Of a DNA stretch of 64,000 bases, positions 1 through 29,526 are shown in pieces. How positions within the stretch are numbered: the stretch's first letter is position 1; the number at the start of each line of letters is the position of its first letter. The stretch comes from a virus. Location: IMG/VR virus record IMGVR_UViG_3300031485_000046. One strand, written 5' to 3'. Made by a program: the position numbers and the translations under genes. The notes beneath the pieces are model-generated. The model made no database searches and had not been told where the DNA came from. It saw only the letters and a program-made list of their open reading frames with translations.

Positions 1-250
1 GCTGATATACTCAATATCATCTTTCTGCATACCTTTCTTTATCTTCTCCGTGAATATGCCTTCAATATCACGGAACGGAGCTTTATTATATTTCTTGAAG
101 TAATCCACACACCAACTGGATAATAATTTAGCCGTAGATGCTTCCATGTAATGGATTGACCATATCGGAGCGATAGCACGAATAAAATCATCGGACACGA
201 TTAAGCCAATAAGGATTTTTCGTTCTATGAATTTATCTGGCTTTTCCATT
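1..250 (-). CDS. Partial CDS (N-terminal 83 codons; continues beyond window start); possible DnaB-like replicative helicase N-terminal region
   Basis: ATG at 248-250 preceded by AGGAGGG RBS; open to position 1; sits directly downstream of the DnaC-like loader gene; weak resemblance to DnaB N-terminal domain. Confidence 0.5.
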
Positions 251-14370: not shown

Positions 14371-14688
14371 CATGTGGTAACCTTACCTCCATCCTTACCA
14401 TCACCTATACCACCATTCATCTGGATCTAATCTGCCTATACCCATATTTAATCTATGGTATTTAATAAATGGACACCATATTTCATAAATGGATAGCCAA
14501 AACCATACAAGCCATATCCTATTCCGTATTCCAATCCAATATATAGATACCTATACCTCCACTTCACCATGTACTGGGAAACCCAGTAATTGGTATAAAA
14601 AAATGGGACCTAAGTGTGGTAACCTAGATTTATCTATGTATGATCGTTTATATAGTGAAACCGAGATTTATACCTATTATTTTGTCCT

Positions 14689-15080
14689 CCACTATACCAA
14701 TACGGTGGTATGCTGGATTGTAATCAGGAAATTCAAATACGGAGTAGACCTCGATGTTTTACTATGTATATATAGAACGTATCTTTATAACAGTACCTAC
14801 CAACTATCCACTACGGTGGTGTGTTGGATTGTACTTATAAATATGTGGAAAATAGAAAATGGGAGGTATTTCGATGTTTTACTATGTAGAACCGACGGTC
14901 TGTTTTTGTCAGGAATCTTCCAACTATCCACTACGGTGGTATATTGGGAGATACTTACCGAAACGTGTATGATATGAAATGGGAGGTATTTCGATGTTTT
15001 ACTATGCATATATAGAGATATTGATTGGTTCCCATTTACCCTATATCTTACCCAGTATCCACTACGGTGGTATGTTGGGT
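14689..15080. repeat. Four direct repeats, period about 120-130 bp, with conserved cores CCACTACGGTGGT and GGGAGGTATTTCGATGTTTTACTATG
   Basis: Core copies at about 14689, 14801, 14921, 15051; second core at 14751, 14871, 14991. Confidence 0.7.
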
Positions 15081-15168
15081 AGTATTAATCCGTAGTATGG
15101 GTAGGTACTGTCTAGATTGTTTATCTATATATAGAGAATGAATAAGGTGTGTCCATTCCCAAAATACC

Positions 15169-15697
15169 TCAGGCCCTCCATTATCTAGAATTTTCCCCAA
15201 TTATAAAAATTTGTCAACCTCTGGCAGCTAAATGGAGTATAAGTATCCTACGGATACATGTATAAAAATGAAATCTTGGACACGTATCCAACGGATTATT
15301 TTATAAAAATGGGATTGGATTATTTTTATTTATACAGGTTCAATTTGAGAAAATGCACCTGTTTGAGTTTTCGATGGGTAATTGGTATAACAATAGTTGG
15401 ATTATATAAAAACGGTATGGGATAATACCAGACCCGTTTTGAAGGCATAAATTGCATAAATCAGTTCCGTTTATTTTTTTATTTCCTATGGATGGTACCG
15501 AATATTTCGAGGAGAAAAGGAATCCATAAAAATCATACGAGGTTTTTCATGCTACCTAATCCAAAATACGTGGCGAATTTTCGGCTCCGTAATCGTTTTT
15601 CTAGAGGTGAGCGGTGAATTCATACCGGTAGAAAATGAGCGCCTTCTAGCGCACCGCTGGCGGAGAAACTCATTGGCGGAGAAACTGGCGGAGAAAA
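15169..15697. repeat. Non-coding element B: TCAGGCCCTCCATT box (15169-15182) and three GGCGGAGAAA(C/A) repeats (15659-15669, 15675-15685, 15687-15697)
   Basis: Homologous end motifs and spacing to element A (2881-3398). Confidence 0.6.
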
Positions 15698-15748
15698 TGG
15701 ATGGATTTTTCTGTTTTTCTGTTTTTCTGATTGTTGTACATCGTTTCT

Positions 15749-15797
15749 ACATTCTACATTCTACATTCTACATTCTACATTCTACATTCTGCATTTC
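15749..15797. repeat. Heptanucleotide tandem repeat ATTCTAC, about 7 copies
   Basis: Direct read of sequence. Confidence 0.75.
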
Positions 15798-16019
15798 AGA
15801 AGAATGCATGTGGTACTTTATAAGATGCATGTATGCAATGTCATATGCATCCTTAATTGTCTCCTGATTACTATACAATTATACACTATTCCTATTCCTG
15901 TTTCAATCGTAACAGATATTTTACTATTATATAATAATCTATAGTATTGTGTCATATTGTAGAATATTCTTATATTCATGAATATCAGACAAGCATAATG
16001 CAGAATGCATATTATACAA

Positions 16020-16213
16020 TGCATTATTCAGCTATATTTTTCACAAGCATTTTTTAGTAGTACAATGCATAATGCAGAATGCATCATGCATTATTCAATG
16101 AAACATTTCACAAGTGTTCATACAGTGCATACAATACATTCTGCATCATGCATCATGCATTATTCAGCTATATTTTTCACAAGCATTTTTTAGTAGTACA
16201 ATACATTCTGCAA
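16020..16213. repeat. Two copies of a 50-bp direct repeat (16021-16070, 16157-16206) plus three copies of TTCAATGAAAYATTTCACAAG
   Basis: Direct read of sequence; repeats about 136 bp apart. Confidence 0.6.
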
Positions 16214-16439
16214 TATGCATTGTATAGCATGTATTATTCAATGAAACATTTCACAAGTGTTACTGTATCCGAAGAGTATACAATGCATTTTTCAATGAAA
16301 TATTTCACAAGCGATACTGTGATCGAATTGTATCTGAATGACTATACAATTCACTATTATTTTATAAAACTCTATAGTATTGCAGAATACAGTAGAATTC
16401 AGTAGAATTATATTAAGTGTATAGTCTTTTCATGCATAG

Positions 16440-16467
16440 TTGACATTCTATCGTAGAGTGCTATACT
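16440..16467 (+). promoter_or_regulatory. Sigma-70-type promoter for three-gene cassette
   Basis: TTGACA (16440-16445), 16-nt spacer, TATACT (16462-16467). Confidence 0.5.
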
Positions 16468-16584
16468 GTACTCGTAGCAAGCGAGCGAGCAAGTTCTTTG
16501 ACAACTGAAGAAGCAAGCTCATAACAGAGTAACACTTCTTCAGAACATACGCGCACAACGTTGCGCAGAAAGAGAGTGTGTAGC

Positions 16585-16923
16585 ATGACAACGAGCAGCA
16601 AGAAGAACGTAAACAGTAAGAAAGCTGAAATAGTCGAACAGAAAGCAGTTGAAGTAAAGAAAGAAGAAGTAAGAGAAGCAAAGAAGATTAGCAATACTCA
16701 GAAGTGTGCTGATATGATCATGCAACTTGCGAAAGACGCTAAGTATACTCGCAGTGAAATTTGTAATGCTGTTTCAGATGCACTAACAGCATTAAGCATA
16801 GTCACAGTAAAGACTATGCTTTCAGACTTGCAGAACAGCAAGTATGCAAGACGTTATAGCACTCATACTATCGCAGTAAACAAAGAAACAAAGATTGTAA
16901 CAGTAGCAAGTGAGATAAAATGA
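16585..16923 (+). CDS. Hypothetical lysine-rich protein (cassette gene 1)
   Basis: ATG at 16585 downstream of promoter; 5' leader contains 9-bp inverted repeat CTGAAGAAG/CTTCTTCAG (16503-16545). Confidence 0.55.
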   Translation: MTTSSKKNVNSKKAEIVEQKAVEVKKEEVREAKKISNTQKCADMIMQLAKDAKYTRSEICNAVSDALTALSIVTVKTMLSDLQNSKYARRYSTHTIAVNKETKIVTVASEIK

Positions 16924-17132
16924 AGTATCAGCATGTTGAACGTTCGCAAGCTCTCGCAGTAAGTGACGTTGAAACTTTGCAGAATATTGCAAAAAGACGT
17001 CTGATCGATTTGAAACAGCTTGCAAGAGAAGCAGACTCTTTACTTGTCTTTTCAGTAATAAGAAATACATGTATTCAAATCGATCGAAGCATCGATGATG
17101 CACTTGAAAACGCAAGAAAATTACTGAAGTAG
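16920..17132 (+). CDS. Hypothetical protein (cassette gene 2)
   Basis: ATGA overlap with upstream stop. Confidence 0.5.
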   Translation: MKYQHVERSQALAVSDVETLQNIAKRRLIDLKQLAREADSLLVFSVIRNTCIQIDRSIDDALENARKLLK

Positions 17133-17141
17133 TACAAAAAA

Positions 17142-17185
17142 AGATAGTCAAGTATCTACAATTCGATACTTGACTATCTTTTTAT
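17142..17185 (+). terminator. Rho-independent terminator
   Basis: Perfect 15-bp stem AGATAGTCAAGTATC/GATACTTGACTATCT, 8-nt loop, T-rich tail. Confidence 0.6.
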
Positions 17186-17208
17186 CTCATTTGAAAGAGA
17201 GTGATACT

Positions 17209-17532
17209 ATGTTAGATAATCAGTATGAATTACATCAAAAGATACAAAAAATAGAACACAAGCATATCAGATTACATGCAAGCAATTGTATGTACAAATT
17301 GATGAATATTCAATTGTTACTTGAAGAACAGATTAATCTACTCATTTCTGATATTGTAGCAAATGATGCTTCTGTTAGTGAAATATTGCTAACAGAACGT
17401 CAAAGTACATTTGATAATGAACTTTTTGCGATAACGACAAAAGAAGATAGAAAAGCAATAGCAATACTGCATAATACTATAATCGATAGTATGAATGCAG
17501 TAAGAAAGACAATCATCTATACAGACGAATAA
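17209..17532 (+). CDS. Hypothetical protein (cassette gene 3)
   Basis: ATG at 17209 (MLDNQYELHQ) after weak RBS; ORF track start at 17170 lies inside the terminator. Confidence 0.5.
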   Translation: MLDNQYELHQKIQKIEHKHIRLHASNCMYKLMNIQLLLEEQINLLISDIVANDASVSEILLTERQSTFDNELFAITTKEDRKAIAILHNTIIDSMNAVRKTIIYTDE

Positions 17533-17574
17533 AATTACACAATAGAGCATAATTGATAGCAATTGAATAGAAAA

Positions 17575-17612
17575 GAGTAGTCAATACTAGACTACTCTTT
17601 TCTTTTTTATTC
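17575..17612 (+). terminator. Rho-independent terminator
   Basis: Stem AGAGTAGTC/GACTACTCT, 7-nt loop, T-run. Confidence 0.6.
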
Positions 17613-17750
17613 ATGCATACAATGCATGATGCATCCTGCACTATGCATAGTATAAGCGTTCATAGTAGCATTTGATAACATAACACTACACTATTTATTA
17701 CAATTAGACAATATACTACAATATGATAGTGTAGTGTGTATTGTCTATTC

Positions 17751-17794
17751 TATACACTACAATATAGACAAGTATACACTACAATATAGACAAG
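17751..17794. repeat. Tandem 22-bp direct repeat TATACACTACAATATAGACAAG (2 copies), flanked by inverted repeat ACACTACACTAT/ATAGTGTAGTGT
   Basis: Direct read of sequence. Confidence 0.6.
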
Positions 17795-17998
17795 TATAGA
17801 ATAGAGTATAATAATCTATAGTATGCTACACTATATAGCAATATAATATAATAATATATAATTGTATAGTAAAGCAGATACAATTCAATACAATGACTGC
17901 GCTAGTATACAATGCATGATGCATGATGCATCGTACACAATGCATAATGTAAAATCGATTTTACACGTTGCAGAATGCATGCTGGCTCCTGGCCCCCT

Positions 17999-18152
17999 CT
18001 AAAATTGTGACAAATTTTTCTGGATATTAAAATGGGTAATCCATTATTTTCTAAAGCATATTCATTATTTATTCTACGTATCTTTCACACACCCCTCGTA
18101 AAATTGCTACTGATTTTTCCCAATACTAAAGTGGGTAATCCATTATTTTCGA
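17999..18152. repeat. Two copies of about 55-bp element ending in TGGGTAATCCATTATTTTC (promoter-like)
   Basis: Copies at about 17999-18052 and 18094-18150; degenerate third at about 18340-18375. Confidence 0.55.
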
Positions 18153-18414
18153 TATATCTATTCTGTATGACTGTATAGATAGTATAAGATGCAGTATCCA
18201 ATTTTAACTAATGGATTAATATACCCAATTTACTCATACTATACGTATCTTCATGGATCCGTTTTCTTTCGTCTTTATTTTTACCATACCCCGTCATTCT
18301 GTATGAATTTATCCAAAAATAACCGCATAAATATTTTGTAAAAATTTATATGGGAGTTAAAATGGGTTGATTAGATCAGTAGAGAGGTTAGATCACACTA
18401 GGGAGTTAGATACG

Positions 18415-18452
18415 ATGCATCCTAGCCCGGATCCTGATAGGCTAGGATGCAT
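18415..18452. other. Perfect 13-bp inverted repeat (stem-loop) ATGCATCCTAGCC / GGCTAGGATGCAT with 12-nt loop
   Basis: Direct read of sequence; no T-run follows. Confidence 0.5.
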
Positions 18453-18674
18453 ATAGAAACTATGTTTGTCGTAATATATCTTGAAAACGCATCAGATTCG
18501 TTTCATACTGTGCGATTTCCTTGCTTATGGAAGCTGTTCGTTCTGTTTCAGACGTTGTTTCTATCGTCTAGAGTGAAAAAGATCGAATACCGTGCAAGGA
18601 TTTAACGTGTCATGCCATCCCATTCGGTTGTTCCCTCCGTCCTTGCGACTTTCCTATAAGGGATGGAAACCGGG

Positions 18675-18893
18675 TCATTTCGCCCGCTCCTCCCAGAACC
18701 GTCTGCGTCGCTCCTCCCTGTGACGCTTGATATTCTCCCGCACCCTCTGCGTGCGGGGCGGGAACGTGTTCAGATGGGTCAGCACCGGCTCCACGCTGAC
18801 AGCTCTGCCGAATTCCCTCTCCCATTCCTGGGCGTAGATTTCCTCGTAGGATAACATTTCGCGAAATCTGAGCCCCGTGCATCGTCCGCTCAT
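18675..18893 (-). CDS. Small basic, arginine-rich protein encoded in a GC-rich patch
   Basis: ATG overlaps stop of KdsB-like gene (ATGA); local composition visibly GC-richer than surroundings. Confidence 0.4.
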   Translation of the reverse strand: MSGRCTGLRFREMLSYEEIYAQEWEREFGRAVSVEPVLTHLNTFPPRTQRVRENIKRHREERRRRFWEERAK

Positions 18894-19684
18894 TCCTTAC
18901 CCTCCTTTTTTTCTATAATTTCATCATATTCATTTTCTTTACCAGAGTTTATTATACAACGAACAGCTTCCAAATCAGCAGGAGTATCTACACTAGGTCC
19001 AACTTTTTTTGCTCTTGTTATTTCTACTTTAATGGAAAAATCATGTTCTAATATTCTGAGCTGTTCCAGTGATTCTGCTGATGCCAAAGGTGTTTGTGGC
19101 ATTTTGGCATAATAATGGATTAAGAAACGTCTAGTAAATCCATAAATTCCTATATGTCGGTAGATGGGATATACTTCTTCCGGATCTCTAATAAAAGGGA
19201 TAGGAGACCTACTGAAATATAAAGCATCTCCATTTATTCTGAATGCCACTTTTACTACCGATGGATCATTGATAGTAGCGGTATCTGTAATAAGGGCACA
19301 TATCGTAGCAGATTCCGTAGCCCTATTTTCAGTTTTATAAAATAATGATATTACTTCATCAATCATACAAGGATTAAGTAATGGTTCATCCCCTTGTATG
19401 TTTATCACTATATTATTATTAGAGAATTTTTTAGCTATTTCCACAACTCTACTAGTTCCGTTTGTATGATTTGGAGAAGTTAGCATAGCTTCTCCACCGA
19501 AATTATTTACAGCCTGCACGATTCTTTCATCGTCAGTAGCTACAATCAACCGGTCAAGTAAAGTAGATCGTGAGGCTCGCTCGTACACTCTCTGGATCAT
19601 TGTTTTTCCGCATATATCAGCTAGAGGTTTACCGGGGAGCCTTGTAGAATTGTATCTAGCGGGGATAACTCCTAAAGTTATCAT
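18890..19684 (-). CDS. kdsB: CMP-Kdo synthetase-like cytidylyltransferase (3-deoxy-manno-octulosonate cytidylyltransferase family)
   Basis: IPARYNSTRLPGKPL, VATDDE, GGE, QGDEP, ALYFSR, HIGIYGF, LEQLR, VDTPADLE match KdsB signature blocks as recalled. Confidence 0.85.
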   Translation of the reverse strand: MITLGVIPARYNSTRLPGKPLADICGKTMIQRVYERASRSTLLDRLIVATDDERIVQAVNNFGGEAMLTSPNHTNGTSRVVEIAKKFSNNNIVINIQGDEPLLNPCMIDEVISLFYKTENRATESATICALITDTATINDPSVVKVAFRINGDALYFSRSPIPFIRDPEEVYPIYRHIGIYGFTRRFLIHYYAKMPQTPLASAESLEQLRILEHDFSIKVEITRAKKVGPSVDTPADLEAVRCIINSGKENEYDEIIEKKEGKE

Positions 19685-19703
19685 TATTTATCACTTCCAT
19701 TCA

Positions 19704-19850
19704 TTATTTAAGATTATGTGGTACTTTTTTGTCAAGTTCCAGTAATTTTGCATTAACTTTTTCTAGTTCAGCCATGAGAAATATTACCATATCGCATCTA
19801 TCAGGTAGTATTTTTTCTTTACCTGTTACTTTCCTCCATAATTCTACCAT
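19704..19850 (-). CDS. Short ORF (48 aa) paralogous to C-terminal half of the 20615-20914 protein; not in ORF track
   Basis: ELWRKVTGKEKILPDRCDMVIFLMAELEKVNAKL vs RLWRKTTGKDFIMPDRCDLVVYLMEELDKAKRRI; no clear RBS. Confidence 0.3.
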   Translation of the reverse strand: MVELWRKVTGKEKILPDRCDMVIFLMAELEKVNAKLLELDKKVPHNLK

Positions 19851-19906
19851 CGGGATTTGTCCAAAGTTTCTTGTTATTGTCGTATTTCTATCCAGTTCTA
19901 TAATAC

Positions 19907-20443
19907 TTATTCAGAAAGGTTGTCATGTTCACTTGCATTTTCCTCCTTTGTTGGAAGTGGTACCGGTAACTTTTCTTTTATGCAATTCATAAGGATTGTA
20001 TATTTCCTTTCTTGCATCATTTCTAATGCTTTTACCATCGTTTTTCCCCAACCATTACATGAATATTTTCCTAAGTCTTTAATGTAGGCAACGTATCCTT
20101 TCATTCCGTTTAGTTCTGTAGTCATTGGCTGAATTGTAATGGAATACGGAATTTTCATCAATTCATCTATAGTGGGATCCTCGTTTCTGTTTATATTTTG
20201 TGAAATTACCGACATATTTATCATGTCAAACCTATTAGACATACGGTCAGGTACGTTAATCGTAGCACCACATCCGGAGCATCGCAAAATTAAGGAATCT
20301 AATTCTGCAATCATTTTATATGGATTTGGATACGCATACTGTATTTGGTCAAGAGTGTCAATTGGTTTAGCGCAAAGTGGGCAAATTATTTGTCTACCGT
20401 CACAAAACAATACATAACGCCCTTGTCCTATAGAAAGACTCAT
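19907..20443 (-). CDS. Hypothetical protein with paired CxxC motifs
   Basis: 178-codon ORF with AAAGGAG RBS. Confidence 0.6.
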   Translation of the reverse strand: MSLSIGQGRYVLFCDGRQIICPLCAKPIDTLDQIQYAYPNPYKMIAELDSLILRCSGCGATINVPDRMSNRFDMINMSVISQNINRNEDPTIDELMKIPYSITIQPMTTELNGMKGYVAYIKDLGKYSCNGWGKTMVKALEMMQERKYTILMNCIKEKLPVPLPTKEENASEHDNLSE

Positions 20444-20637
20444 TCTTCCATCTCCTTTTTAAGCAAAGCCTTCTGCATTTTCCCCAAAGCCGCAAACAAC
20501 GTATCTTTACAACCCGTATAGATATACAGACTGCCCACAACTTTACCATCAACGAGTACAGTATATGTAGGAGATTTGATTGGCCCATGGTTCTCTTCGA
20601 GTATTATCACTATTTCATTCCCCCTTTTCCATTTCAC
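20440..20637 (-). CDS. Hypothetical small protein
   Basis: GTG start, no clear RBS, overlaps upstream gene by 23 nt. Confidence 0.35.
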   Translation of the reverse strand: MKWKRGNEIVIILEENHGPIKSPTYTVLVDGKVVGSLYIYTGCKDTLFAALGKMQKALLKKEMEE

Positions 20638-20914
20638 GTATTCTACGTTTAGCTTTATCCAATTCCTCCATCAGATATACTACTAAATCACATCTGTCTG
20701 GCATGATAAAATCTTTCCCTGTTGTTTTTCGCCATAGTCTTACCGCTCTCATATCCGCTTTCCATACAATATCGAACACATTCTGGAGTTGTTTAGCGTC
20801 TTCTTTCAAGGAATCCACGAGCATTTTCATATTTTCTAACCGTTTTTTCAAGGAATCTCTCTCTTTAACCAGCTTTTCTAGTTCTTGCATGAGCAATTTT
20901 CGATCACTTTCCAT
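20615..20914 (-). CDS. Hypothetical coiled-coil protein
   Basis: ATG 20912-20914 with AAGGAGGG RBS. Confidence 0.55.
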   Translation of the reverse strand: MESDRKLLMQELEKLVKERDSLKKRLENMKMLVDSLKEDAKQLQNVFDIVWKADMRAVRLWRKTTGKDFIMPDRCDLVVYLMEELDKAKRRIREMEKGE

Positions 20915-21044
20915 CAATGTCCCTCCTTATAAATTTGCGCTTCACTATATTATACAACACCATTTTTGCTCATTTATACATAGTTTTCCATGAAAATTGT
21001 GTTTAATTTGCAATTATAGTATACTGTATAGTTTTCTGTCATAG

Positions 21045-21073
21045 TAGACAAAATTGAATTATGGGTATATAAT
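21045..21073 (+). promoter_or_regulatory. Sigma-70-like promoter for morphogenesis operon
   Basis: TAGACA (21045-21050), 17-nt spacer, TATAAT (21068-21073). Confidence 0.5.
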
Positions 21074-21095: not shown

Positions 21096-22556
21096 GTGAG
21101 TAGGATAGAAAATATCAGTACCAACGAATTGGTTGGGCAATTACAGCGGATTACAGCTATGGCTGAACTGGCTACAAGAATGAATGTCGGTGCTAGGATG
21201 GGAATGCAGTATGACGGCCAACGGGATATTGCAAAAGCTCTTGGCTACCCACAAACAATACGGTACAACGACCTCCTTGCCGCATATACCCGTCAGGATA
21301 TGGCGAAAGCCATTATAGATCGTCCCGTAAAATCTACTTGGCGTGGAGATTTCAAGCTAGTAGAAACCCACAGGGACGATGATACGCAACTCGAAACAGC
21401 TTGGTCTACATTATATAGGAAATTGCACATAAAACAGAATTTCCTTAGAGTGGACAAGCTAGCCTGCCTCGGTAATTATGCTCTTCTTTTTCTTGGTTTC
21501 AATGATGTGAATAGTCCTGAAGAATTGATACGACCTGTTTCTGCTGGAGTAGGACGTGAATTGCTGTATTTGAAACCGTTTGGACAGAATGTCATTCAGA
21601 TCAAAGATTGGGAAGATGATACAAGTTCACCTGAATATGGAATGCCGCTTATTTATGAAGTAGACATTGGAGAAGCATCATCTAAAAAGAGCCGAACTGT
21701 CAGCATCCATCGGTCAAGGATTGTTCATGTAGCTTTCGACCTACTTGAATCAGAGTATGAAGGTGCTCCTGTTCTAGAAGTTGTTTTTAACCGTCTGAAA
21801 GACCTTGAAAAGCTAGTAGGCGGTTCTGCTGAAATGTTCTGGAGAGGTGCTAGACCTGGATATGCAGGTAAAATTGATCCAGAATACATGCTGACGAAAG
21901 ATACGGAAGAGGGATTGAAACGCCAGCTGGATGAGTTTGAAAATAATCTGCGAAGGATACTCATGCTTGAAGGTGTTACACTCGATAGCCTTGAGCCGCA
22001 GGTAGTTGACCCGTCTATGCACGTTGATATCCAGATTCAGATGATTTCTGCTATTACTGGTATTCCTAAGAGAATTCTTACAGGAAGTGAGCGAGGTGAT
22101 CTTGCTTCTACGCAAGACAAAGATAACTGGCTCGACCTTATCCAAATGCGACGGGAAGAATATGCTGAACCTAAGATCATTCGAGCAACCATTGACCGTT
22201 GTATTGAATTTGGTGTGCTTCCTAAGCCTGAAAAGGAAACATACAAAATAAAATGGCAGGATCTTTATGCACCGTCTGTTAAGGATCAAGCGGACATTGG
22301 GCAGATACGTTCGCTTGCCTTGAAACATTATACGTACAATCCTGAAGCAGAGCAGTTTATCCCGTTTGAAGCGTTCCTTACATTCTTCCTTGGTTTGGAA
22401 GATGAGGAAGTGGAGTATATCAAAAAGCTCCAGCAAACAAGTGAAAGGATATTGACGCCTGAATTAAAGGAACTTGCGAATGAAAATGCACCAACACGGA
22501 GAGAACGCCCTCCGCGGAGAGGAATACCTCGAGAGGATGAAGAACTAGAAAAGTGA
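21096..22556 (+). CDS. Portal protein
   Basis: Size and position (first gene of head module after terminase region); GTG start abuts RBS so true start may be downstream. Confidence 0.75.
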   Translation: MSRIENISTNELVGQLQRITAMAELATRMNVGARMGMQYDGQRDIAKALGYPQTIRYNDLLAAYTRQDMAKAIIDRPVKSTWRGDFKLVETHRDDDTQLETAWSTLYRKLHIKQNFLRVDKLACLGNYALLFLGFNDVNSPEELIRPVSAGVGRELLYLKPFGQNVIQIKDWEDDTSSPEYGMPLIYEVDIGEASSKKSRTVSIHRSRIVHVAFDLLESEYEGAPVLEVVFNRLKDLEKLVGGSAEMFWRGARPGYAGKIDPEYMLTKDTEEGLKRQLDEFENNLRRILMLEGVTLDSLEPQVVDPSMHVDIQIQMISAITGIPKRILTGSERGDLASTQDKDNWLDLIQMRREEYAEPKIIRATIDRCIEFGVLPKPEKETYKIKWQDLYAPSVKDQADIGQIRSLALKHYTYNPEAEQFIPFEAFLTFFLGLEDEEVEYIKKLQQTSERILTPELKELANENAPTRRERPPRRGIPREDEELEK

Positions 22557-22696: not shown

Positions 22697-24121
22697 ATGA
22701 CAACCGCAGTAATCAGTATGTATCAGGTGCAGGCAAATAATTATGAAATTCGTATGGAAACGTACATGGGAAGAAAGCATTTGATCGTTCCTGTAGTGAT
22801 GATGGTAGAAGGTGTGCATTGTGGTAGTGCTGGCCCGTTGTTTCATTCAATAGAAGAGCTTGGTAAGTACCCTGATTCTTGGAATGGAATCCCTGTTTCT
22901 ATTCAGCATCCCGAGCAAGATGGGCAGTATATTTCCGCAAACAGTCCTGAAGTTCTTGAACGGCAGACTGTTGGGCAGGTTTTCAATACGTTTGTTGATG
23001 GAAATAAGCTAAAAGCAGAGTGCTGGATTGACATTGAACGTATTACCACTATTAGTCCAGAAGCATACGCATATCTCCAGAATAAACGACCTCTGGAAGT
23101 GAGTATTGGTGTGTTTTCAGATGATATTCCACAAGAAGGCGATTGGAACGGAGAACATTATATAGCTGTTGCCACCAATCATCGTCCTGATCATCTTGCT
23201 CTTCTTCCTGGTGGCAGAGGTGCGTGTTCCTGGGCAGATGGAGCAGGTATCAGAGCCAATTCTATGAAGAAAGGAGGAGAGCCGGTGGATATTACTGCAA
23301 CGATAAAGGATCTTGTGTGTAAAGGATATGGAGTTCTATCGTATCAGAGTAATGAAGGTTTTCGTTCCATTATGTCGCAGATACAGGATGTGCTCAATGG
23401 GTACGATACGGGTCTAAAACTGCATTATCTGTCGGAAGTATACGAGGATTTTTTCGTATATGAGGTGAATTCTCGTATCAATCCAGAAACCTACATTACA
23501 TCCGTAAAGTATTACAAACGTCCGTATTCTGTTAATGAAGATGGAAAAGTTACGCTGGGAGATGTAGCTACGGAAGTGATGCGCAAAATTGTGTATGATG
23601 AGGTTAAAACTAATTCCAAGTATCGAAGAAAGGATGATGTGAAAGTGGACAAAGCAAAAATGGATATTCTGGTCCAGAGCGGAGTGTTTTCCGAAGCTGA
23701 CCAGGAGTGGCTTACGGGACTCGATGCCGAGCGCCTTGATAAGCTGGTTACTGCTTGCACTAAGAAAGTGGAAACTCCGCAGGCGAATGAGGCGAAAGTG
23801 GATATTCCCACAGTCATTCAGGCACTGGCTGAACAGTTTAAGACTCCTGAGCAGTACATCCAGCTGATGCCGGAAGAAATGCGTGATCAGATGGAATCGG
23901 GACTGAAACTGCACAGGGAACAGCGTCAGGCAGTCATTGACAAGATCAAGGCGTTCAATGTATTTTCGGAAGAAGAGCTTCAGAAAAAATCTATGGATGA
24001 ACTGAACAAGATTTCTAAGCTGATTCCTGCGCCTAGGGATTATTCGCTTGCCGGAGCCAAATCTGTCAATACGAATACGGAAACTGAGGAAGTTCTGCTT
24101 CCTCTCGGGCTGAAAGCCTAA
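22697..24121 (+). CDS. Putative prohead protease/scaffolding protein
   Basis: Position after portal; N-terminal globular domain followed by acidic coiled-coil region; RBS AAAGGAGGTGGTG. Confidence 0.55.
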   Translation: MTTAVISMYQVQANNYEIRMETYMGRKHLIVPVVMMVEGVHCGSAGPLFHSIEELGKYPDSWNGIPVSIQHPEQDGQYISANSPEVLERQTVGQVFNTFVDGNKLKAECWIDIERITTISPEAYAYLQNKRPLEVSIGVFSDDIPQEGDWNGEHYIAVATNHRPDHLALLPGGRGACSWADGAGIRANSMKKGGEPVDITATIKDLVCKGYGVLSYQSNEGFRSIMSQIQDVLNGYDTGLKLHYLSEVYEDFFVYEVNSRINPETYITSVKYYKRPYSVNEDGKVTLGDVATEVMRKIVYDEVKTNSKYRRKDDVKVDKAKMDILVQSGVFSEADQEWLTGLDAERLDKLVTACTKKVETPQANEAKVDIPTVIQALAEQFKTPEQYIQLMPEEMRDQMESGLKLHREQRQAVIDKIKAFNVFSEEELQKKSMDELNKISKLIPAPRDYSLAGAKSVNTNTETEEVLLPLGLKA

Positions 24122-24634: not shown

Positions 24635-24661
24635 TCACAAACATAAGGAGGAGTGCTGAAT

Positions 24662-25783
24662 ATGGAACCCAATGTCTATATGGATTTTCTTGCTAACGGA
24701 GCGGCTCAGGGAGAAGTTGCCCAGAACCTTCAGGTGAATGGTCGGCTTGATCCTGCTATGCTTCGTCCGTATATTGGAAGGGATGGAGCATCCTACATCA
24801 CCGTCTGCAAACACGGTGCTGATCCCAAGGATCCTAAGAGTTATCAGTCTATCCGCGTGAATTCTGGTGCAACTCTTCGCAGAGAAGAGTGGCAGTATCT
24901 GGACGAGGCTGTTCTCAATGTTTCTCGGTATCGTCTTGGCGGTATTGCTGACCTTGAGGCAAACGGACTTGTTTACAACCTCAACAATGCTATGGGAACC
25001 ACCGTTCTTGAGTACCATGATGTATCTGACGCTTTCGAGGCAGAACTTACGATGGATGGGGTTACTAGGAGCAAGGGAGACCGTGTGAATTTCGGTGCAA
25101 AGTACCTGCCCATTCCTATCATTCATGTGGACTACGAGATTAATGCTCGTGTTCTTGCCGCTTCTCGTAGCCTTGGTAATGCGCTCGATACGACTCAGGC
25201 AGAAGTTGCCGCTCGTAAGGTTATGGAGAAGCTAGAGAAAATGATGTTCACCAGCGAAACTTACTCGTTTGGTGGGGGAACAATCTATTCTCTTGTCAAT
25301 CATCCTCATCGTAATCCTGTTACTCTCACGGTGAATTGGGATGATAGTACGTCTACTTCTTCTGGTGATCCTGTCATTACAGGTGCAAAGATCATTCAGG
25401 ATGTTCTTGCTATGAAGCAGGCAAGCATTGATGCTTACCACTATGGTCCCTGGATGCTATACATTCCGACCGCATACGAAACAGTCCTTGACTCGGATTA
25501 TGATACCGTTACGCCTGGCACTACGATTCGGGAGAGGATTATGAAGATCGAAGGTATCAAAGGTATCAAGGTTATTGATGTACTCGCTTCCAATAACGTG
25601 CTCCTTGTGCAGATGACCCCCGATGTGGTTCGCCTTGTGAAGGGCATGGCTATTCAGAACGTGGAATGGCAGACTGAGGGACGCTTCATCAATAAGTACA
25701 AAGTTATGACGATCCAGGTTCCTCAGGTTCGTTCTGACTACAACCAGAAGAGCGGCATCGTTCATCTCGCTCCTGCACCCTAA
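24662..25783 (+). CDS. Major capsid protein
   Basis: Size and position; ATG 24662 with AAGGAGG RBS. Confidence 0.7.
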   Translation: MEPNVYMDFLANGAAQGEVAQNLQVNGRLDPAMLRPYIGRDGASYITVCKHGADPKDPKSYQSIRVNSGATLRREEWQYLDEAVLNVSRYRLGGIADLEANGLVYNLNNAMGTTVLEYHDVSDAFEAELTMDGVTRSKGDRVNFGAKYLPIPIIHVDYEINARVLAASRSLGNALDTTQAEVAARKVMEKLEKMMFTSETYSFGGGTIYSLVNHPHRNPVTLTVNWDDSTSTSSGDPVITGAKIIQDVLAMKQASIDAYHYGPWMLYIPTAYETVLDSDYDTVTPGTTIRERIMKIEGIKGIKVIDVLASNNVLLVQMTPDVVRLVKGMAIQNVEWQTEGRFINKYKVMTIQVPQVRSDYNQKSGIVHLAPAP

Positions 25784-25830
25784 AGGTTAATATCAGGCTA
25801 ATCACGCCTATATAAAGGAGGCATGTAAAA

Positions 25831-26259: not shown

Positions 26260-26263
26260 TACA

Positions 26264-26977
26264 ATGCGGGCGTGGAATACTCCGAGGATATGGGATAAAG
26301 GTGAATGTTGGATAATAGGAGGAGGACCTTCTATTATGCGACAGTTCCATATTCCTGAGAATGTGATTGAGGCGGTTAGAGAAAAAAGATTACCGCTTTC
26401 TGCATATTCTCCGTACATGGAAAGCATTCATTCTAAGCATATCATCGGAGTAAACATGGCATTCCAGCTAGGAAATTGGGTTGATTTTTGTTTCTTCGGA
26501 GACGATGGTTGGTTTCGGGACCATAGAAAAGAATTAGCCCAATTTACTGGTGTAAGGGTATCTTGCGCACCTATGTTCAGTAAAAATACGTACCATGCAG
26601 ATAATGGGGAACGTATTAAGTACCTAGCGCAGGATCCTAAAAAATCACACGGTATTAGTGAAGTACCTTACACCGTATGTTGGAATGCAAATAGCGGAGC
26701 GGCGGCAATCAGCCTAGCTTCTCATCTAGGTGCTAAAAAGATTGTTCTGTTAGGATTCGATATGCAGTTAGATCCTAATGGAAATAGTCATTGGCACAAA
26801 GAGTATCAAATGAATCCAGCAAAACGATCCGTGTTTCCTCGACACCTTAGAGGGTTTCCAATTATCGCCGCGGATGCTAAACGGATGGGCATCGAAATAC
26901 TAAATGCCTCACCTGAAAGCGTAATAGACGATTTTCCTAAAATGACAGTGGAGGCGATATTGAATGGTTCTCCATAA
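26264..26977 (+). CDS. Sialyltransferase-like (CMP-sugar-dependent) glycosyltransferase candidate 1
   Basis: Motifs CWIIGGGPS, SGAAAISLASHLGAKKIVLLGFD, HWHKE resemble GT42/GT29-type and Maf/DUF115-type transferases (recalled). Confidence 0.6.
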   Translation: MRAWNTPRIWDKGECWIIGGGPSIMRQFHIPENVIEAVREKRLPLSAYSPYMESIHSKHIIGVNMAFQLGNWVDFCFFGDDGWFRDHRKELAQFTGVRVSCAPMFSKNTYHADNGERIKYLAQDPKKSHGISEVPYTVCWNANSGAAAISLASHLGAKKIVLLGFDMQLDPNGNSHWHKEYQMNPAKRSVFPRHLRGFPIIAADAKRMGIEILNASPESVIDDFPKMTVEAILNGSP

Positions 26978-27578
26978 AAACAATATCGCGGTTATAGGAC
27001 ACGGTCCTAGCACTCGTGGAAGGAAACTAGGCAGTTTCATTAACCTTTGTGATACGGTCATTCGCATGATCGAATGTGATTGGCAGGATGCAGAAGATTA
27101 CGGTAGTAAATATACGATCGGTGTATATGCTACGGGAGGATCTGACGATTTTACAAAGGTGATTGAACGAAAGCCTTCTCTTTGCTGGTGGGTGTACGTT
27201 GCGGCTGGAACCCGTCCTTCTACGGCGATGAATGATGATACAGTAGATGCTCCAGGTGTTGCGGGTCGTCCGATACGGTGGTTACGAAGAACCGTATGGG
27301 ATTGGATCGGTGATAATAAAAAGTTCTCTAGAGGTACTGCTGCCGCGATTGCGTCTATGGCGATCCTAAAACCCACTACAGTTCATTTAGTTGGGTTTGA
27401 TGATGTTGCAAGGGGTGGAATGCTGAAAGGAGCATATCATCCTCCTGAGTTGCAACAGTACCTCAAAGAACAAGGAAAGACACTTGCCAGAAGTGAAACA
27501 GACCATGATTGGAATAATGAAGGCACCGTACTCCAACGTGCCGCAGACTATTACGGAGTTGAGGTGAATTTTCTATGA
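26964..27578 (+). CDS. Sialyltransferase-like glycosyltransferase candidate 2 (paralogue)
   Basis: Motifs IAVIGHGPS, RGTAAAIASMAILKPTTVHLVGFDD, HDWNNE; RBS GGAGGCG. Confidence 0.6.
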   Translation: MVLHKNNIAVIGHGPSTRGRKLGSFINLCDTVIRMIECDWQDAEDYGSKYTIGVYATGGSDDFTKVIERKPSLCWWVYVAAGTRPSTAMNDDTVDAPGVAGRPIRWLRRTVWDWIGDNKKFSRGTAAAIASMAILKPTTVHLVGFDDVARGGMLKGAYHPPELQQYLKEQGKTLARSETDHDWNNEGTVLQRAADYYGVEVNFL

Positions 27579-28813
27579 AGACAATATCAGAGGAATATAT
27601 TCGCCTTAATTCTGAGGTACACAACCAGCGGAGAGGGTACGGTAATTCAGCCAATCGGTTTGCTAAGGACATTGGGCTTGTTTTGCATCAGTTCCACACA
27701 ATGTCTTTTCTGGATTATGGATGCGGAAAAGAATCTTTGATCCGTTGTATTACGAAGGACTATCCGTATCTTGCCCAGAGAGCAAAGTATGGAGCATACG
27801 ATCCAGCTATACCGCACCGGTCCGTTAAGCCGGAAGAGCAGTATGATATGGTTATTTCTACAGATGTTCTTGAACACATTGAACCTGAATATCTGTCAGC
27901 CGTGCTGGAAGAGATCAAAGGATATGCTAAAAAAGGCGTCTATCTGAATATCTGTATGCGACCGTCAGGAGATATTCTACCTGATGGTCGAAATGCCCAT
28001 CTGATCGTTAAAGATGCCCCGTGGTGGCGTGAAACACTATCCAAAGCGTTTGAAGGATGGGCACTGGAAGAACGGGATGTACTTGACTCTTGGCGCAATT
28101 ATACAGTAGTATTGACACCACCTAAGATTCAAAAGCCATTAAATATCGTCTGTTTCTACTGGAAAGGTACGAGTAATCGGTACCCAGGATGGGACGATGT
28201 GGATTTGGCAAAGATTTATGTCAACAATCTGTATAATGGCGTCCGTCGAAATTTGAACAAGGATTACAAGTTCATCTTGTTTTCCAATGATATTGAAGAT
28301 GGGCTGGATCCACATGTAGAGATACGAAAGTTCCAGCCTATCTCGTGGACAGGGTGCAATCCTAAGTTGTATGTGCATAGCCCAGATGCAGGATTAGAGG
28401 GAAGGGTGCTTACGTTTGATATGGATACTATCATCGTAGGAGACCTTACTAATTTTGCAGAATACGATGGGGCTTTCACTACACGGATGGAACCTGACCG
28501 AAGAAGAGTAACAGCAGGAGACCTGCTAGGATTTGAAGCAGGTGAAACGTACCAGTTATGGGAGAATTATAAGAATATCTCCAAGTATGCTGAAAAGTAT
28601 CAAGGAGATGAAAGGGAGATCTACAAACTTCTTTGGAAACATTTGCTGTACTGGCAAGAAGAAATACCCGGGCAGTTGGTTTCTTATAAAGGTGATGTTC
28701 GTCCTAATCAGAACAGACTGCCTAGAAATGCAAGAATTGTAAGTGCGCACGGTAAGCCTCGTCCGCATGAGATCAATGCGGAATGGATTAAATCGTGTTG
28801 GTGGGGAAAATGA
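27575..28813 (+). CDS. Fusion protein: N-terminal class I SAM-dependent methyltransferase, C-terminal domain of unknown (possibly transferase) function
   Basis: FLDYGCGKESL (motif I-like) and MVISTDVLEHIEP (motif II-like); C-terminal FDMDTIIVGD. Confidence 0.6.
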   Translation: MKTISEEYIRLNSEVHNQRRGYGNSANRFAKDIGLVLHQFHTMSFLDYGCGKESLIRCITKDYPYLAQRAKYGAYDPAIPHRSVKPEEQYDMVISTDVLEHIEPEYLSAVLEEIKGYAKKGVYLNICMRPSGDILPDGRNAHLIVKDAPWWRETLSKAFEGWALEERDVLDSWRNYTVVLTPPKIQKPLNIVCFYWKGTSNRYPGWDDVDLAKIYVNNLYNGVRRNLNKDYKFILFSNDIEDGLDPHVEIRKFQPISWTGCNPKLYVHSPDAGLEGRVLTFDMDTIIVGDLTNFAEYDGAFTTRMEPDRRRVTAGDLLGFEAGETYQLWENYKNISKYAEKYQGDEREIYKLLWKHLLYWQEEIPGQLVSYKGDVRPNQNRLPRNARIVSAHGKPRPHEINAEWIKSCWWGK

Positions 28814-29526
28814 AACCGTATGTAGAATCTCCCATTATCATAACAGGTTGTCCACGAAGCGGAACTAGCATCATTTCTGGGATGTTAGAAATATGTGGTG
28901 CATTTGCAGGAACTATTCCACAGCCTACGAAACACGAAACAAGAGGCATGGGAGAGAATCGGGTTATATATGAGGATGTTGTTAAACCGTATATTCAGAG
29001 TTTGCAAGCGGATCCATCTGGACAATGGCCATTGATGGATTCTGAAAAACTGATGATTCCTATCGACTGGGAATCAATGATTTCAGACGCCTTGCACAAG
29101 GATGGCTATATGGGAGGCAAATGGCTATATAAGAGTAATACTGCGGCTCTTATGTGGAAAGTGTGGTCCTACGCCTATCCTAGCGCCAAATGGGTCCTAG
29201 TACGCAGGCGTACAGGTGACATAGTTTCTTCATGTTTGCAGACCTCGTATATGAAAGCATTCAAAAATCCTGCATATCGTAAGGAAATTGGAGCGGAAAC
29301 AGAATCAGAAGCATGGATCCATTGGGTACATAAGTATGAAGAAGCCTTTGTAGGGATGTTGACTGCGGGAGTTAATTGTAAGGTTGTCTGGCCGGAAAGA
29401 TTCGTAAGAAACGATTATCAACAGTTGTATGAAGTAATTGAATGGGTAGGGCTTGAATGGAAATCTTCTGTAGCAGATTATCTAGACCCAAAGCTATGGA
29501 AGAATGAACGGAAGGAGGAGTGCTGA
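28810..29526 (+). CDS. Sulfotransferase
   Basis: IIITGCPRSGTSIISGML (5'-PSB PAPS-binding motif) and VLVRRRTGDIVSS (3'-PB-like); ATG 28810 overlaps upstream stop (ATGA). Confidence 0.7.
   Translation: MKPYVESPIIITGCPRSGTSIISGMLEICGAFAGTIPQPTKHETRGMGENRVIYEDVVKPYIQSLQADPSGQWPLMDSEKLMIPIDWESMISDALHKDGYMGGKWLYKSNTAALMWKVWSYAYPSAKWVLVRRRTGDIVSSCLQTSYMKAFKNPAYRKEIGAETESEAWIHWVHKYEEAFVGMLTAGVNCKVVWPERFVRNDYQQLYEVIEWVGLEWKSSVADYLDPKLWKNERKEEC

What the first reader, a model, noticed from the sequence alone, without database searches (positions are those of the whole stretch)
18890..19684. KdsB-like CMP-Kdo synthetase encoded about 7 kb from the transferase cluster
The protein matches KdsB block-for-block (IPARYxSTRLPGKPL, VATD, GGE, QGDEP, YFSR, GIYG, LEQLR, VDTPxDLE). 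A phage-encoded nucleotide-sugar activating enzyme implies a dedicated supply of CMP-ulosonic acid, presumably for the sialyltransferase-like enzymes at 26264-27578. No other Kdo biosynthesis gene is visible in the window, so the free sugar would come from the host.
Basis: partly seen in the sequence, partly recalled or inferred. Interest (0 to 1): 0.7.

Follow-up and report, generated by a model that had tools for sequence, protein, structure and literature searches.

The report
Optional phage-borne CMP-Kdo synthetase gene
A 64.6-kb tailed phage carries an intact copy of the bacterial enzyme that activates the sugar Kdo, but as a swappable accessory gene absent from close relatives; it may feed two sialyltransferase-like enzymes encoded beside the capsid gene, which remains unproven.

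Summary
Window 18890-19684 (minus strand) encodes a 264-aa protein that passes the curated KdsB thresholds and fails those for PseF and NeuA. It keeps the catalytic Lys and both Mg-binding Asp residues.

The window is 99% of a 64.6-kb siphovirus genome with no other Kdo gene, so free Kdo must come from the host.

- In favour: both ORFs at 26264-27578 have sialyltransferase folds (Maf, CstII, GT29), families that use CMP-activated ulosonic acids. Published Maf enzymes accept CMP-Kdo. A few unrelated viral contigs place KdsB in one operon with a Maf-like gene.
- Against: KdsB lies in a divergently transcribed, hypervariable cassette (18602-21041). At least seven close relatives carry other cargo there (small unknown ORFs, in one case ThyX) yet keep the same transferase cluster. 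None of 72 more distant relatives with the conserved capsid / ST-like / sulfotransferase island has a cytidylyltransferase within 10 kb.

KdsB is therefore an optional booster, not a dedicated partner. Phage KdsB genes already exist (298 IMG/VR contigs, cyanophage S-SCSM2R). The more interesting object is the lineage-wide glycan island inside the head module.

The parts
18890..19684 (-). kdsB-like gene: CMP-Kdo synthetase (3-deoxy-manno-octulosonate cytidylyltransferase), 264 aa, with an ~18-aa acidic/lysine-rich C-terminal tail beyond the family core
   Evidence: K19, D99 and D233 correspond to KpsU K19/D98/D225 and Aquifex K19/D95/D219 (alignment; PMC3149649). GC 0.36, GC3 0.23.
18675..18893 (-). 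72-aa ORF of unknown function. Its start overlaps the kdsB stop (ATGA) and follows an AAGGAGG Shine-Dalgarno sequence. It is a GC-rich island (GC 0.60, GC3 0.75).
   Evidence: No Pfam hit. Absent downstream of kdsB in the other kdsB-carrying contigs L104/L105.
19704..19850 (-). 48-aa ORF, apparently a C-terminal remnant of a second orf100-like gene directly upstream of kdsB. It marks a recombination seam.
   Evidence: Gene call in L001. L104 has an orf100-like ORF directly upstream of kdsB. L113 shares window 19678-19847 without kdsB.
19907..20443 (-). 178-aa ORF with a zinc-ribbon-like motif, function unknown; same leftward operon
   Evidence: Largely deleted in L107 and L108.
20440..20637 (-). 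65-aa ORF, function unknown; leftward operon
20615..20917 (-). 100-aa ORF, function unknown; first gene of the leftward operon
21013..21042 (-). Sigma-70-like promoter (11/12 match) pointing leftward into the kdsB operon. It is paired back-to-back with a rightward promoter-like site at 21045-21073 in front of the portal gene.
   Evidence: consensus match only. The synteny break with relatives falls at 21041.
18602..21041 (.). Hypervariable accessory-gene cassette. In close relatives it is replaced by 2.8-4.5 kb of unrelated genes (small ORFs; ThyX in L110).
26264..26977 (+). Sialyltransferase-fold protein 1 (Maf/CstII-like; phrog_4603). It is a core gene of the phage lineage and always sits two genes after the major capsid gene.
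   Evidence: AF2 pLDDT 93. Foldseek 5mu5 2e-5 and 1ro8 3e-5. Conserved synteny in 72/72 loci.
26964..27578 (+). Sialyltransferase-fold protein 2 (GT29/GT42-like), restricted to the near relatives
   Evidence: 14 homologues. AF2 pLDDT 78. The top 36 Foldseek hits are all sialyltransferases. No significant sequence similarity to protein 1.
27575..28813 (+). Fusion of a methyltransferase (N-terminal) and a glycosyltransferase-like domain (C-terminal)
28795..29526 (+). Sulfotransferase (Sulfotransfer_3), the conserved right-hand end of the head-module glycan island
   Evidence: Present in 44/72 divergent relatives.
24653..25783 (+). Major capsid protein, a candidate acceptor of the glycan (inferred only)

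Best explanation
The ORF encodes a working CMP-Kdo synthetase: Kdo + CTP gives CMP-Kdo + PPi by a two-Mg mechanism. It is carried as an optional auxiliary metabolic gene in a hypervariable cargo locus between the terminase and portal genes of a 64.6-kb, apparently virulent siphovirus. It is probably transcribed leftward from the promoter-like site at 21013-21042 as part of the operon orf100-orf65-orf178-kdsB-orf72. The phage has no kdsA, kdsC or kdsD, so it uses host-made Kdo and raises the pool of CMP-Kdo, which is unstable. The most likely consumers are the phage's two sialyltransferase-fold enzymes in the head-module glycan island (26264-29526). These would put Kdo on a virion protein or on a glycan that is then methylated and sulfated. 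Relatives without kdsB would rely on the host's own KdsB. What is shown: enzyme family, intact catalytic residues, phage location, accessory status, and the fold of the transferases. What is inferred: expression, pool boosting, and that CMP-Kdo is the transferases' donor.
For: Family assignment and residues. Complete phage genome with no other Kdo or nucleotide-sugar gene and no integrase. Two sialyltransferase-fold enzymes beside the capsid gene. All solved relatives use CMP-ulosonic acids. Maf enzymes from C. botulinum and G. kaustophilus accept CMP-Kdo and O-glycosylate Ser/Thr with Kdo (PMC11339370; bioRxiv 10.1101/2020.06.03.131540). Independent association: in viral contigs L058, L039, L050 and L065, kdsB is the last gene of a co-directional ~10-kb glycan operon that begins with a Maf-like protein. 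The island in 72 relatives encodes GT11, GT2, GDP-mannose dehydratase, DegT and methyltransferases, but no nonulosonate or CMP-sugar genes were detected. A CMP-sugar donor would therefore have to be host-made, and CMP-Kdo is the one expected in any LPS-producing host (last step is inference). A strong Shine-Dalgarno sequence and start/stop overlap with the next gene argue that the operon is translated.
Against: kdsB is absent from at least seven close relatives that keep the transferase cluster, and from 72/72 divergent relatives within 10 kb. It is on the opposite strand in a different operon, 6.6 kb from the transferases. The same locus carries ThyX or unknown small ORFs in other variants, so its cargo is not specifically glycan-related. 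The donor specificity of the ST-fold proteins is unknown; they fall below the Pfam MptE-like cutoff (19.8 against 34.6 bits). kdsB's own ribosome-binding site is weak. There are no expression or glycan data.
Confidence: 0.5

Rival explanations
1. Host-envelope role. The extra CMP-Kdo feeds the host's own Kdo transferase (WaaA) or capsule machinery. This would keep LPS and outer-membrane synthesis going during infection, or remodel the cell surface, for example to limit superinfection or loss of progeny on debris. The head-module transferases would be unrelated to it.
For: This is the usual reading of phage LPS genes. Cyanophage S-SCSM2R kdsA/kdsB are interpreted as cell-wall synthesis and modification genes (PMC12801897). 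About 50 of 79 IMG/VR kdsB loci belong to a T4-like lineage in which kdsB follows a HAD hydrolase and has no ST-like neighbour. Here kdsB is unlinked from the transferase operon and is optional.
Against: The phage encodes no Kdo transferase of the LPS type (GT30) and no capsule type. Nothing else in the genome touches LPS. The genome does encode two enzymes from CMP-ulosonate-dependent fold families. A lytic phage with no integrase has little time to remodel a cell surface.
Confidence: 0.25
2. Passenger gene. kdsB is neutral cargo picked up by illegitimate recombination in a recombination hot spot and has no adaptive role.
For: The locus is mosaic with sharp seams at 18602, about 19850 and 21041. 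It contains a truncated orf100-like remnant, and neighbouring genes have very different composition (kdsB GC3 0.23, orf72 GC3 0.75). kdsB is rare among relatives.
Against: The ORF is full length with every invariant family residue intact. It is only 63-64% identical to any sampled bacterial KdsB, and its GC3 is far from the neighbouring insert, so it is not a fresh capture. The same allele (99% identity) occurs in a different flanking context in other samples (L104, L105). That pattern suggests the gene moves and is retained as a unit.
Confidence: 0.12
3. Different substrate. The enzyme activates a modified or different ulosonic acid (for example 8-amino-Kdo, Ko or Kdn) rather than Kdo itself.
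For: The protein has a non-canonical C-terminal tail and branches at the base of its nearest clade with weak support. Other viral kdsB operons include a PhyH dioxygenase and a DegT aminotransferase, which hints at modified Kdo.
Against: It scores above the curated kdsB equivalog cutoff. It keeps the residues invariant across bona fide KdsBs. The phage encodes no sugar-modifying enzyme near it.
Confidence: 0.08
4. Artefact. The gene is bacterial DNA joined to a phage contig by misassembly.
For: The Logan contig ends 22 bp beyond kdsB, and several related contigs break near this locus.
Against: The window runs through the junctions on both sides. An independent Logan contig is 100% identical from kdsB through the portal into the tail genes. 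Flanks on both sides are phage sequence shared with relatives. Breaks at strain-variable loci are expected in metagenome assemblies.
Confidence: 0.03

Closest known systems
Bacterial CMP-Kdo synthetases KdsB (L-CKS) and KpsU (K-CKS): E. coli 1gq9, 3k8d; V. cholerae 3oam; Aquifex 2y6p
   Same: Full-length homology (E about 1e-57). The same P-loop (R10, K19), QGDEP and VDTP aspartates, and HIGIY and LEQL motifs. It passes the TIGR00466 equivalog cutoff.
   Different: It is encoded by a phage with no kdsA, kdsC, kdsD or waaA neighbours. It has an ~18-residue charged C-terminal tail. It is 63-64% identical at best to any sampled bacterial protein. The nearest named relatives are Synergistota, but clade support is only 33%.
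Other virus-encoded KdsB genes: Synechococcus phage S-SCSM2R (kdsA + kdsB), an uncultured T4-like lineage in IMG/VR, and the predicted Kdo pathways of the giant viruses CroV and Fadolivirus
   Same: A viral copy of the CMP-Kdo activation step, interpreted as an auxiliary glycan or LPS gene.
   Different: It is not related to those copies (at most 44% identity, an independent acquisition). Here it stands alone without other pathway genes, in a mid-sized siphovirus, as strain-variable cargo.
Viral contigs with a Maf-like ... KdsB glycan operon (IMG/VR L058, L039, L050, L065)
   Same: A KdsB and an MptE/Maf-like transferase are encoded in one viral genome, within 10 kb.
   Different: In those contigs the two genes share one co-directional operon with SIS (KdsD-like), DegT, PhyH, GNAT and other GT genes. 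Here they are in separate, divergently oriented units, and kdsB is dispensable.
Maf flagellin glycosyltransferases, and the CstII (GT42) and GT29 sialyltransferases
   Same: The predicted folds of the two ORFs at 26264-27578 match these families at probability 1.0. Maf enzymes O-glycosylate proteins and can use CMP-Kdo.
   Different: About 230 and 204 aa, against about 630 aa for Maf. Only 12-18% identity. Below the Pfam cutoff. No flagellin context. The acceptor is presumably a virion protein. Donor untested.
Mycobacteriophage virion glycosylation (Freeman et al. 2023, cited in PMC12619734)
   Same: Glycosyltransferase genes embedded in the structural module next to the capsid gene; glycans on capsid and tail-tube subunits are the precedent.
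   Different: Different enzyme families (sialyltransferase fold, sulfotransferase), a different phage lineage and host, and no chemical evidence here.

Membership tests
KdsB / CMP-Kdo synthetase (PF02348, TIGR00466) | Full-length match to the curated family profile above its trusted cutoff | tested here: met
   TIGR00466 212.3 bits against 155.2. NF003952 287.3 against 193. Pfam CTP_transf_3 192 against 22.6.
KdsB / CMP-Kdo synthetase (PF02348, TIGR00466) | N-terminal CTP-binding loop with conserved Arg10 and Lys19 | tested here: met
   R10 and K19 are present and invariant in a 16-sequence alignment. They align without gaps to KpsU R10/K19. The role of K19 is described in PMC3149649.
KdsB / CMP-Kdo synthetase (PF02348, TIGR00466) | Two strictly conserved aspartates that bind Mg-A (Aquifex D95/D219) | tested here: met
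   D99 (QGDEP) and D233 (VDTP) are invariant. They align to KpsU D98 and D225. Role described in PMC3149649.
KdsB / CMP-Kdo synthetase (PF02348, TIGR00466) | Closer to solved CMP-Kdo synthetases than to CMP-nonulosonate synthetases | tested here: met
   13 CKS structures at 1e-57 to 2e-36, full length. NeuA reaches 5e-7, N-terminal half only.
KdsB / CMP-Kdo synthetase (PF02348, TIGR00466) | Catalyses Kdo + CTP -> CMP-Kdo | not testable with these tools
   Needs an enzyme assay or complementation of a kdsB mutant.
CMP-nonulosonate synthetases (NeuA, PseF, LegF) | Match to the family equivalog profile above cutoff | tested here: not met
   PseF TIGR03584 46.5 bits against 205.7, covering residues 5-107 only. 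No NeuA or LegF model was reported at E<=0.01.
Sialyltransferase-fold transferases (GT42 CstII, GT29, Maf/MptE-like) for ORFs 26264-26977 and 26964-27578 | Modified GT-A sialyltransferase fold | tested here: met
   ORF1: 5mu5 (Maf) 2.2e-5 and 1ro8 (CstII) 3e-5, probability 1.0. ORF2: the top 36 hits are all sialyltransferases, best 4e-5.
Sialyltransferase-fold transferases (GT42 CstII, GT29, Maf/MptE-like) for ORFs 26264-26977 and 26964-27578 | Sequence-profile membership (Pfam MptE-like gathering score) | tested here: not met
   ORF1 scores 19.8 bits against a cutoff of 34.6. ORF2 has no Pfam hit. ORF1 does match phrog_4603 'alpha-2,3-sialyltransferase' at 3.7e-34.
Sialyltransferase-fold transferases (GT42 CstII, GT29, Maf/MptE-like) for ORFs 26264-26977 and 26964-27578 | Uses a CMP-activated ulosonic acid donor; catalytic His in place | not tested
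   Invariant His residues exist (H59, H176, H194 in A2), but no superposition or assay was done.
Phage virion-glycosylation systems (mycobacteriophage type) | Glycosyltransferase genes embedded in the structural module next to the capsid gene | tested here: met
   The order portal-protease-o163-MCP-o142-ST-like-[variable GT/sugar genes]-sulfotransferase-connector genes holds in 72/72 loci.
Phage virion-glycosylation systems (mycobacteriophage type) | Glycan covalently attached to capsid or tail subunits | not testable with these tools
   Needs glycoproteomics of purified virions.

The most novel reading that the evidence does not exclude
A large, undescribed siphovirus lineage (at least 285 IMG/VR contigs) decorates its virions through a head-module glycan island. 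The island's invariant first enzyme is a Maf/CstII-fold transferase that uses host CMP-Kdo to O-link Kdo to a capsid or tail protein. Variable downstream enzymes then extend, methylate and sulfate it. In this strain a mobile kdsB cassette boosts the donor supply. This would be the first ulosonic-acid ('sialylation-like') and sulfated glycosylation of a bacteriophage particle.
Probability: 0.2. Interest if true: 0.8.

Novelty: new member of a known kind. Interest (0 to 1): 0.5.

Why it matters
Taken alone, the gene adds one more virus-borne CMP-Kdo synthetase to a list that already exists. It was acquired independently, and the nearest named bacterial relatives are Synergistota. Its value is as a pointer. 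It is the only nucleotide-sugar enzyme in a complete phage genome that also encodes two sialyltransferase-fold enzymes, a methyltransferase-GT fusion and a sulfotransferase directly after the capsid gene. That island is conserved across hundreds of uncultured phages. If CMP-Kdo is the donor, phage particles would carry an acidic bacterial sugar. That could affect adsorption, immune or defence recognition, and particle stability. Natural kdsB-plus and kdsB-minus variants give a ready-made comparison for testing this.

Tried and rejected
- Megablast of 20 kb of the window against 50,697 phage records found no match.
- tRNA and Rfam scans of the window, and an E-value Rfam scan of 14-21.1 kb, found nothing credible. 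The GC-rich 18.6-18.9 kb island is therefore better read as the coding orf72.
- I looked for ORF 26964-27578 as a sequence paralogue of 26264-26977. BLASTP and an HMM search were not significant. Only fold prediction linked them.
- I looked for any KdsB- or NeuA-type gene near the ST-like gene in about 100 related loci with a KdsB HMM at E<=1. There were none.
- Host assignment from MAG bins gave conflicting labels: the nearest contig is binned as 'Mariniphaga' and others as assorted Bacteroidota and other phyla. I did not adopt a Bacteroidota host because about 40 of 70 genes have strong AAGGAGG-type ribosome-binding sites and the nearest named KdsB homologues are Synergistota. The host remains unresolved.
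- Support for the Synergistota placement is weak (33%).
- Freeman et al. 2023 (PMC10527164) is not held, so it is cited only through PMC12619734.
- The exact-sequence look-up of QueC failed.
- The few differences between the two kdsB alleles (7 nt, 3 aa) are too few for a dN/dS test.
Full report
**Observation**

An ORF occupies exactly 18890-19684 on the minus strand (ATG start, 264 aa).
- Pfam: CTP_transf_3, 1.5e-56.
- NCBIfam: three KdsB subfamily models and the kdsB equivalog TIGR00466 are above their curated cutoffs (287, 273, 269 and 212 bits). PseF reaches 46.5 bits against a cutoff of 205.7.
- Solved structures: the 13 best are all CMP-Kdo synthetases, led by E. coli KpsU 1gq9 at 9e-57. 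NeuA reaches 5e-7 over the N-terminal half only.
- Alignment with 15 homologues: 59 invariant columns are all kept, including R10, K19, Q97-G-D99-E-P, H177, E204, L206-E-Q-L209 and D233.
- Aligned to KpsU, these are R10, K19, D98 and D225. The Aquifex structure paper names K19 and the two strictly conserved aspartates (D95, D219) as the β-phosphate-stabilising and Mg-A-binding residues (PMC3149649).

**What the replicon is**

The window is a tailed phage.
- Structural and lysis genes: large terminase 12119-13714, portal 21096-22556, protease/scaffold 22697-24121, major capsid 24653-25783, tail terminator, tail tube, tail T, tape measure 32434-35067, J-like fibre 36303-39773, further fibre, M15 peptidase and holin.
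- Replication and nucleotide module: DnaC-like protein, primase, sigma factor, SNF2 helicase, ThyX, dNMP kinase, dUTPase, YhhQ-like transporter, SbcCD-like proteins, RecA, clamp and clamp loader, intein-containing PolA, UDG-exonuclease, QueF and QueC.
- No integrase was seen.

A Logan contig from SRR34859213 is 100% identical to the window. It joins window position 1 to position 64000 through 611 nt inside a DnaB gene. The window is therefore 99% of a 64,611-bp circular or circularly permuted genome.

None of about 90 ORFs scanned is KdsA, KdsC, KdsD or WaaA, or any other nucleotide-sugar enzyme.

**Origin of the gene**

The best matches are 57-64% identical. Where named, they are Synergistota (Synergistales, Synergistaceae, Aminivibrio, Aminobacterium). 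The 63% homologue P0003 sits in ordinary bacterial context.

A neighbour-joining tree joins the window protein with the 99%-identical P0001 (bootstrap 100). It places the pair at the base of a 29-member clade whose named members are all Synergistota, but with only 33% support. It is not related to any of 14 sampled viral KdsBs.

The gene has GC 0.36 and GC3 0.23, the lowest in the genome. The 72-aa ORF that overlaps its stop codon has GC 0.60 and GC3 0.75. The gene is neither a fresh capture from a sampled bacterium nor of the same origin as its neighbour.

**kdsB is optional cargo**

kdsB lies in a leftward operon (orf100, orf65, orf178, a 48-aa remnant, kdsB, orf72) that diverges from the portal gene. 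A back-to-back pair of promoter-like sites lies at 21013-21073.

Relatives with 77-99% identical portals come from IMG/VR and JGI/ENA metagenomes.
- They are collinear with the window up to 18602 and again from 21041, but the interval between differs.
- L090/L111, L110, L112 and L199 break at exactly 21041.
- L090 carries 2.8 kb of small unknown ORFs. L110 carries 4.5 kb that includes a ThyX gene.
- L107 and L108 keep window 19820-19976 but not kdsB. L113 keeps the 170 bp directly upstream of kdsB (19678-19847) followed by a different gene.
- Only two short Logan contigs (L104, L105) carry the gene (99% identity), and there both flanks differ from the window.

In relatives with 44-54% identical portals, terminase and portal are adjacent. 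The window has a 7.4-kb insert between them. The locus is therefore a recombination hot spot for accessory genes, and kdsB is one of several alternative cargoes.

**The transferase cluster**

ORF 26264-26977 matches phrog_4603 'alpha-2,3-sialyltransferase' (3.7e-34). It matches Pfam MptE-like only weakly (19.8 bits, cutoff 34.6).
- With a 40-sequence alignment, AlphaFold gave pLDDT 93.
- Foldseek's only hits below 1e-3 are the Maf flagellin glycosyltransferase 5mu5 and the CstII sialyltransferase.

ORF 26964-27578 has no significant sequence similarity to the first ORF.
- Its model (pLDDT 78) hits only sialyltransferases in the top 36 places: GT29 ST6GalNAc2, ST3Gal-I, ST8SiaIII and ST6Gal1, and GT42 Cst-I and CstII.

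The next two genes are a methyltransferase/glycosyltransferase fusion and a sulfotransferase.

**The cluster is a core feature of a large phage lineage**

The first ST-like protein has 365 homologues in the protein database and 285 in IMG/VR.
- In 72 of 72 divergent loci (46-73% identity) the order is portal, protease, o163, capsid, o142, ST-like. A variable stretch of 0.7-10 kb follows, and then usually the sulfotransferase and the head-tail connector genes.
- A Pfam census of 129 representative proteins from the variable stretch found GT11, GT2, GT47, DXD-type transferases, many methyltransferases, GDP-mannose 4,6-dehydratase, NDP-sugar epimerases and reductases, DegT aminotransferases and radical-SAM enzymes.

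This is a glycan-synthesis island inside the head module. It is analogous in position to the glycosyltransferases of mycobacteriophages, whose capsid and tail-tube subunits are glycosylated (cited in PMC12619734).

A KdsB HMM can also detect NeuA-type enzymes weakly. It found nothing at E<=1 in six-frame ORFs of about 100 such loci.

**Does kdsB serve these transferases?**

In favour:
- All solved relatives of the two ST-fold proteins use CMP-activated ulosonic acids.
- Maf enzymes from C. botulinum and G. kaustophilus accept CMP-Kdo and O-link Kdo to Ser/Thr (PMC11339370; bioRxiv 10.1101/2020.06.03.131540).
- Neither this genome nor the sampled islands encode nonulosonate synthesis. A CMP-sugar donor would therefore be host-made, and CMP-Kdo is the one expected in any LPS-producing host (inference).
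- In four related IMG/VR contigs (L058, L039, L050, L065), kdsB is the last gene of a co-directional ~10-kb operon that starts with a ~510-aa Maf-like protein. In L058 the operon also contains GT-D-like, pyruvyl transferase, PhyH dioxygenase, GNAT, DegT, SIS (KdsD-like) and GT2 genes.

Against:
- kdsB is unlinked, opposite in orientation, and optional.
- It is absent from every other member of the lineage examined.
- The same locus carries unrelated cargo elsewhere.

My reading is that the ST-fold enzymes, if they use CMP-Kdo, normally live off the host pool. This strain has picked up a booster. That is a weaker claim than a 'dedicated supply'.

**Comparison with known cases**

Virus-encoded KdsB is not new.
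- tblastn finds it in 7 of 50,697 deposited phage records.
- The pattern scan found it in 298 IMG/VR contigs.
- About 50 of the best 79 belong to one T4-like lineage, where it follows a HAD hydrolase among baseplate genes.
- Cyanophage S-SCSM2R has kdsA and kdsB (PMC12801897).
- CroV and Fadolivirus are predicted to encode the whole Kdo pathway (PMC9614988).

The present gene is an independent acquisition (at most 44% identity to other viral copies). It stands alone in a mid-sized siphovirus.

**Host**

The host is unresolved.
- Nearest named KdsB homologues are Synergistota.
- AAGGAGG-type ribosome-binding sites precede about 40 of 70 genes. From general knowledge this is atypical for Bacteroidota.
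- The nearest genome-collection contig is binned in a 'Mariniphaga' MAG, and more distant ones in assorted phyla. Binning of phage contigs is unreliable.

**Verdict**

The finding is real and correctly identified, and its mechanistic interpretation is plausible but overstated. As a gene it is a new member of a known kind. The wider context, a conserved head-module glycan island built around a sialyltransferase-fold enzyme with natural kdsB-plus and kdsB-minus variants, deserves follow-up.

Noticed in passing
window 24653-29526, and loci L124-L195: A glycan-synthesis island sits inside the head module of a large uncultured siphovirus lineage (285 IMG/VR contigs). Its order is MCP, o142, an invariant Maf/CstII-fold gene, a 0.7-10 kb variable set of GT/sugar/methyltransferase genes (GT11 most common), a sulfotransferase, then the connector genes. 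I found no description of it in the searched literature.
   Followed up: partly
window 14500-18600: About 4 kb of repeat-rich, nearly ORF-free sequence lies between the terminase and the kdsB cassette. It has several direct-repeat families (53-nt units spaced about 70 nt apart at 15999-16315, ATGCAT-rich 34-mers, 41-nt units at 14687-15089, a 59-nt pair at 17993-18150) and inverted repeats flanking 16.06-17.65 kb. The Logan assembly lacks exactly 14887-18867. It may be an origin, a packaging region or a promoter array.
   Followed up: no
window 18675-18893 (-): A 72-aa ORF with GC 0.60 and GC3 0.75 lies in a 42% GC genome. It overlaps the kdsB stop codon (ATGA) behind a perfect AAGGAGG. It has no Pfam hit and is absent from the other kdsB-carrying contigs. 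It looks like a separate recent insertion of unknown function.
   Followed up: partly
window 1-249 and 63322-64000; L246 10911-11521: The two window ends are halves of one DnaB-like helicase gene. With 611 missing nucleotides the sequence closes into a 64,611-bp circle, so the window is essentially a complete genome.
   Followed up: yes
window 55511-57355 (-): The family A DNA polymerase is interrupted by an intein (Intein_splicing/HINT at residues ~189-308).
   Followed up: no
window 46440-47090, 61179-62436 (-): QueC, QueF and a YhhQ/Vut_1-type transporter suggest 7-deazaguanine (preQ-type) metabolism, possibly DNA modification. No DpdA-like transglycosylase was identified among the ORFs scanned.
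   Followed up: no
window 52030-53304 and 62294-63211 (-): Two ORFs have long acidic Asp/Glu-rich low-complexity stretches (9-nt periodic repeats in the DNA) and no family assignment.
   Followed up: no
L110 7675-8334 (-), against window 43931-44611 (-): In a close relative the cassette that replaces kdsB carries a ThyX gene. The window phage has its ThyX elsewhere, so metabolic genes appear to shuffle through this locus.
   Followed up: partly
L058 609-10699 (also L039, L050, L065): A 151-kb viral contig carries one operon: Maf-like, GT-D-like, pyruvyl transferase, PhyH dioxygenase, GNAT, DegT aminotransferase, SIS isomerase, GT2, KdsB. This looks like a pathway for a modified Kdo plus its transferase.
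   Followed up: partly
L015, L020, L063, L066 and about 50 other IMG/VR loci: A T4-like myovirus lineage carries a HAD hydrolase + KdsB pair embedded among baseplate genes (gp53-like, T4 baseplate protein). This is the commonest context of viral KdsB in IMG/VR.
   Followed up: partly
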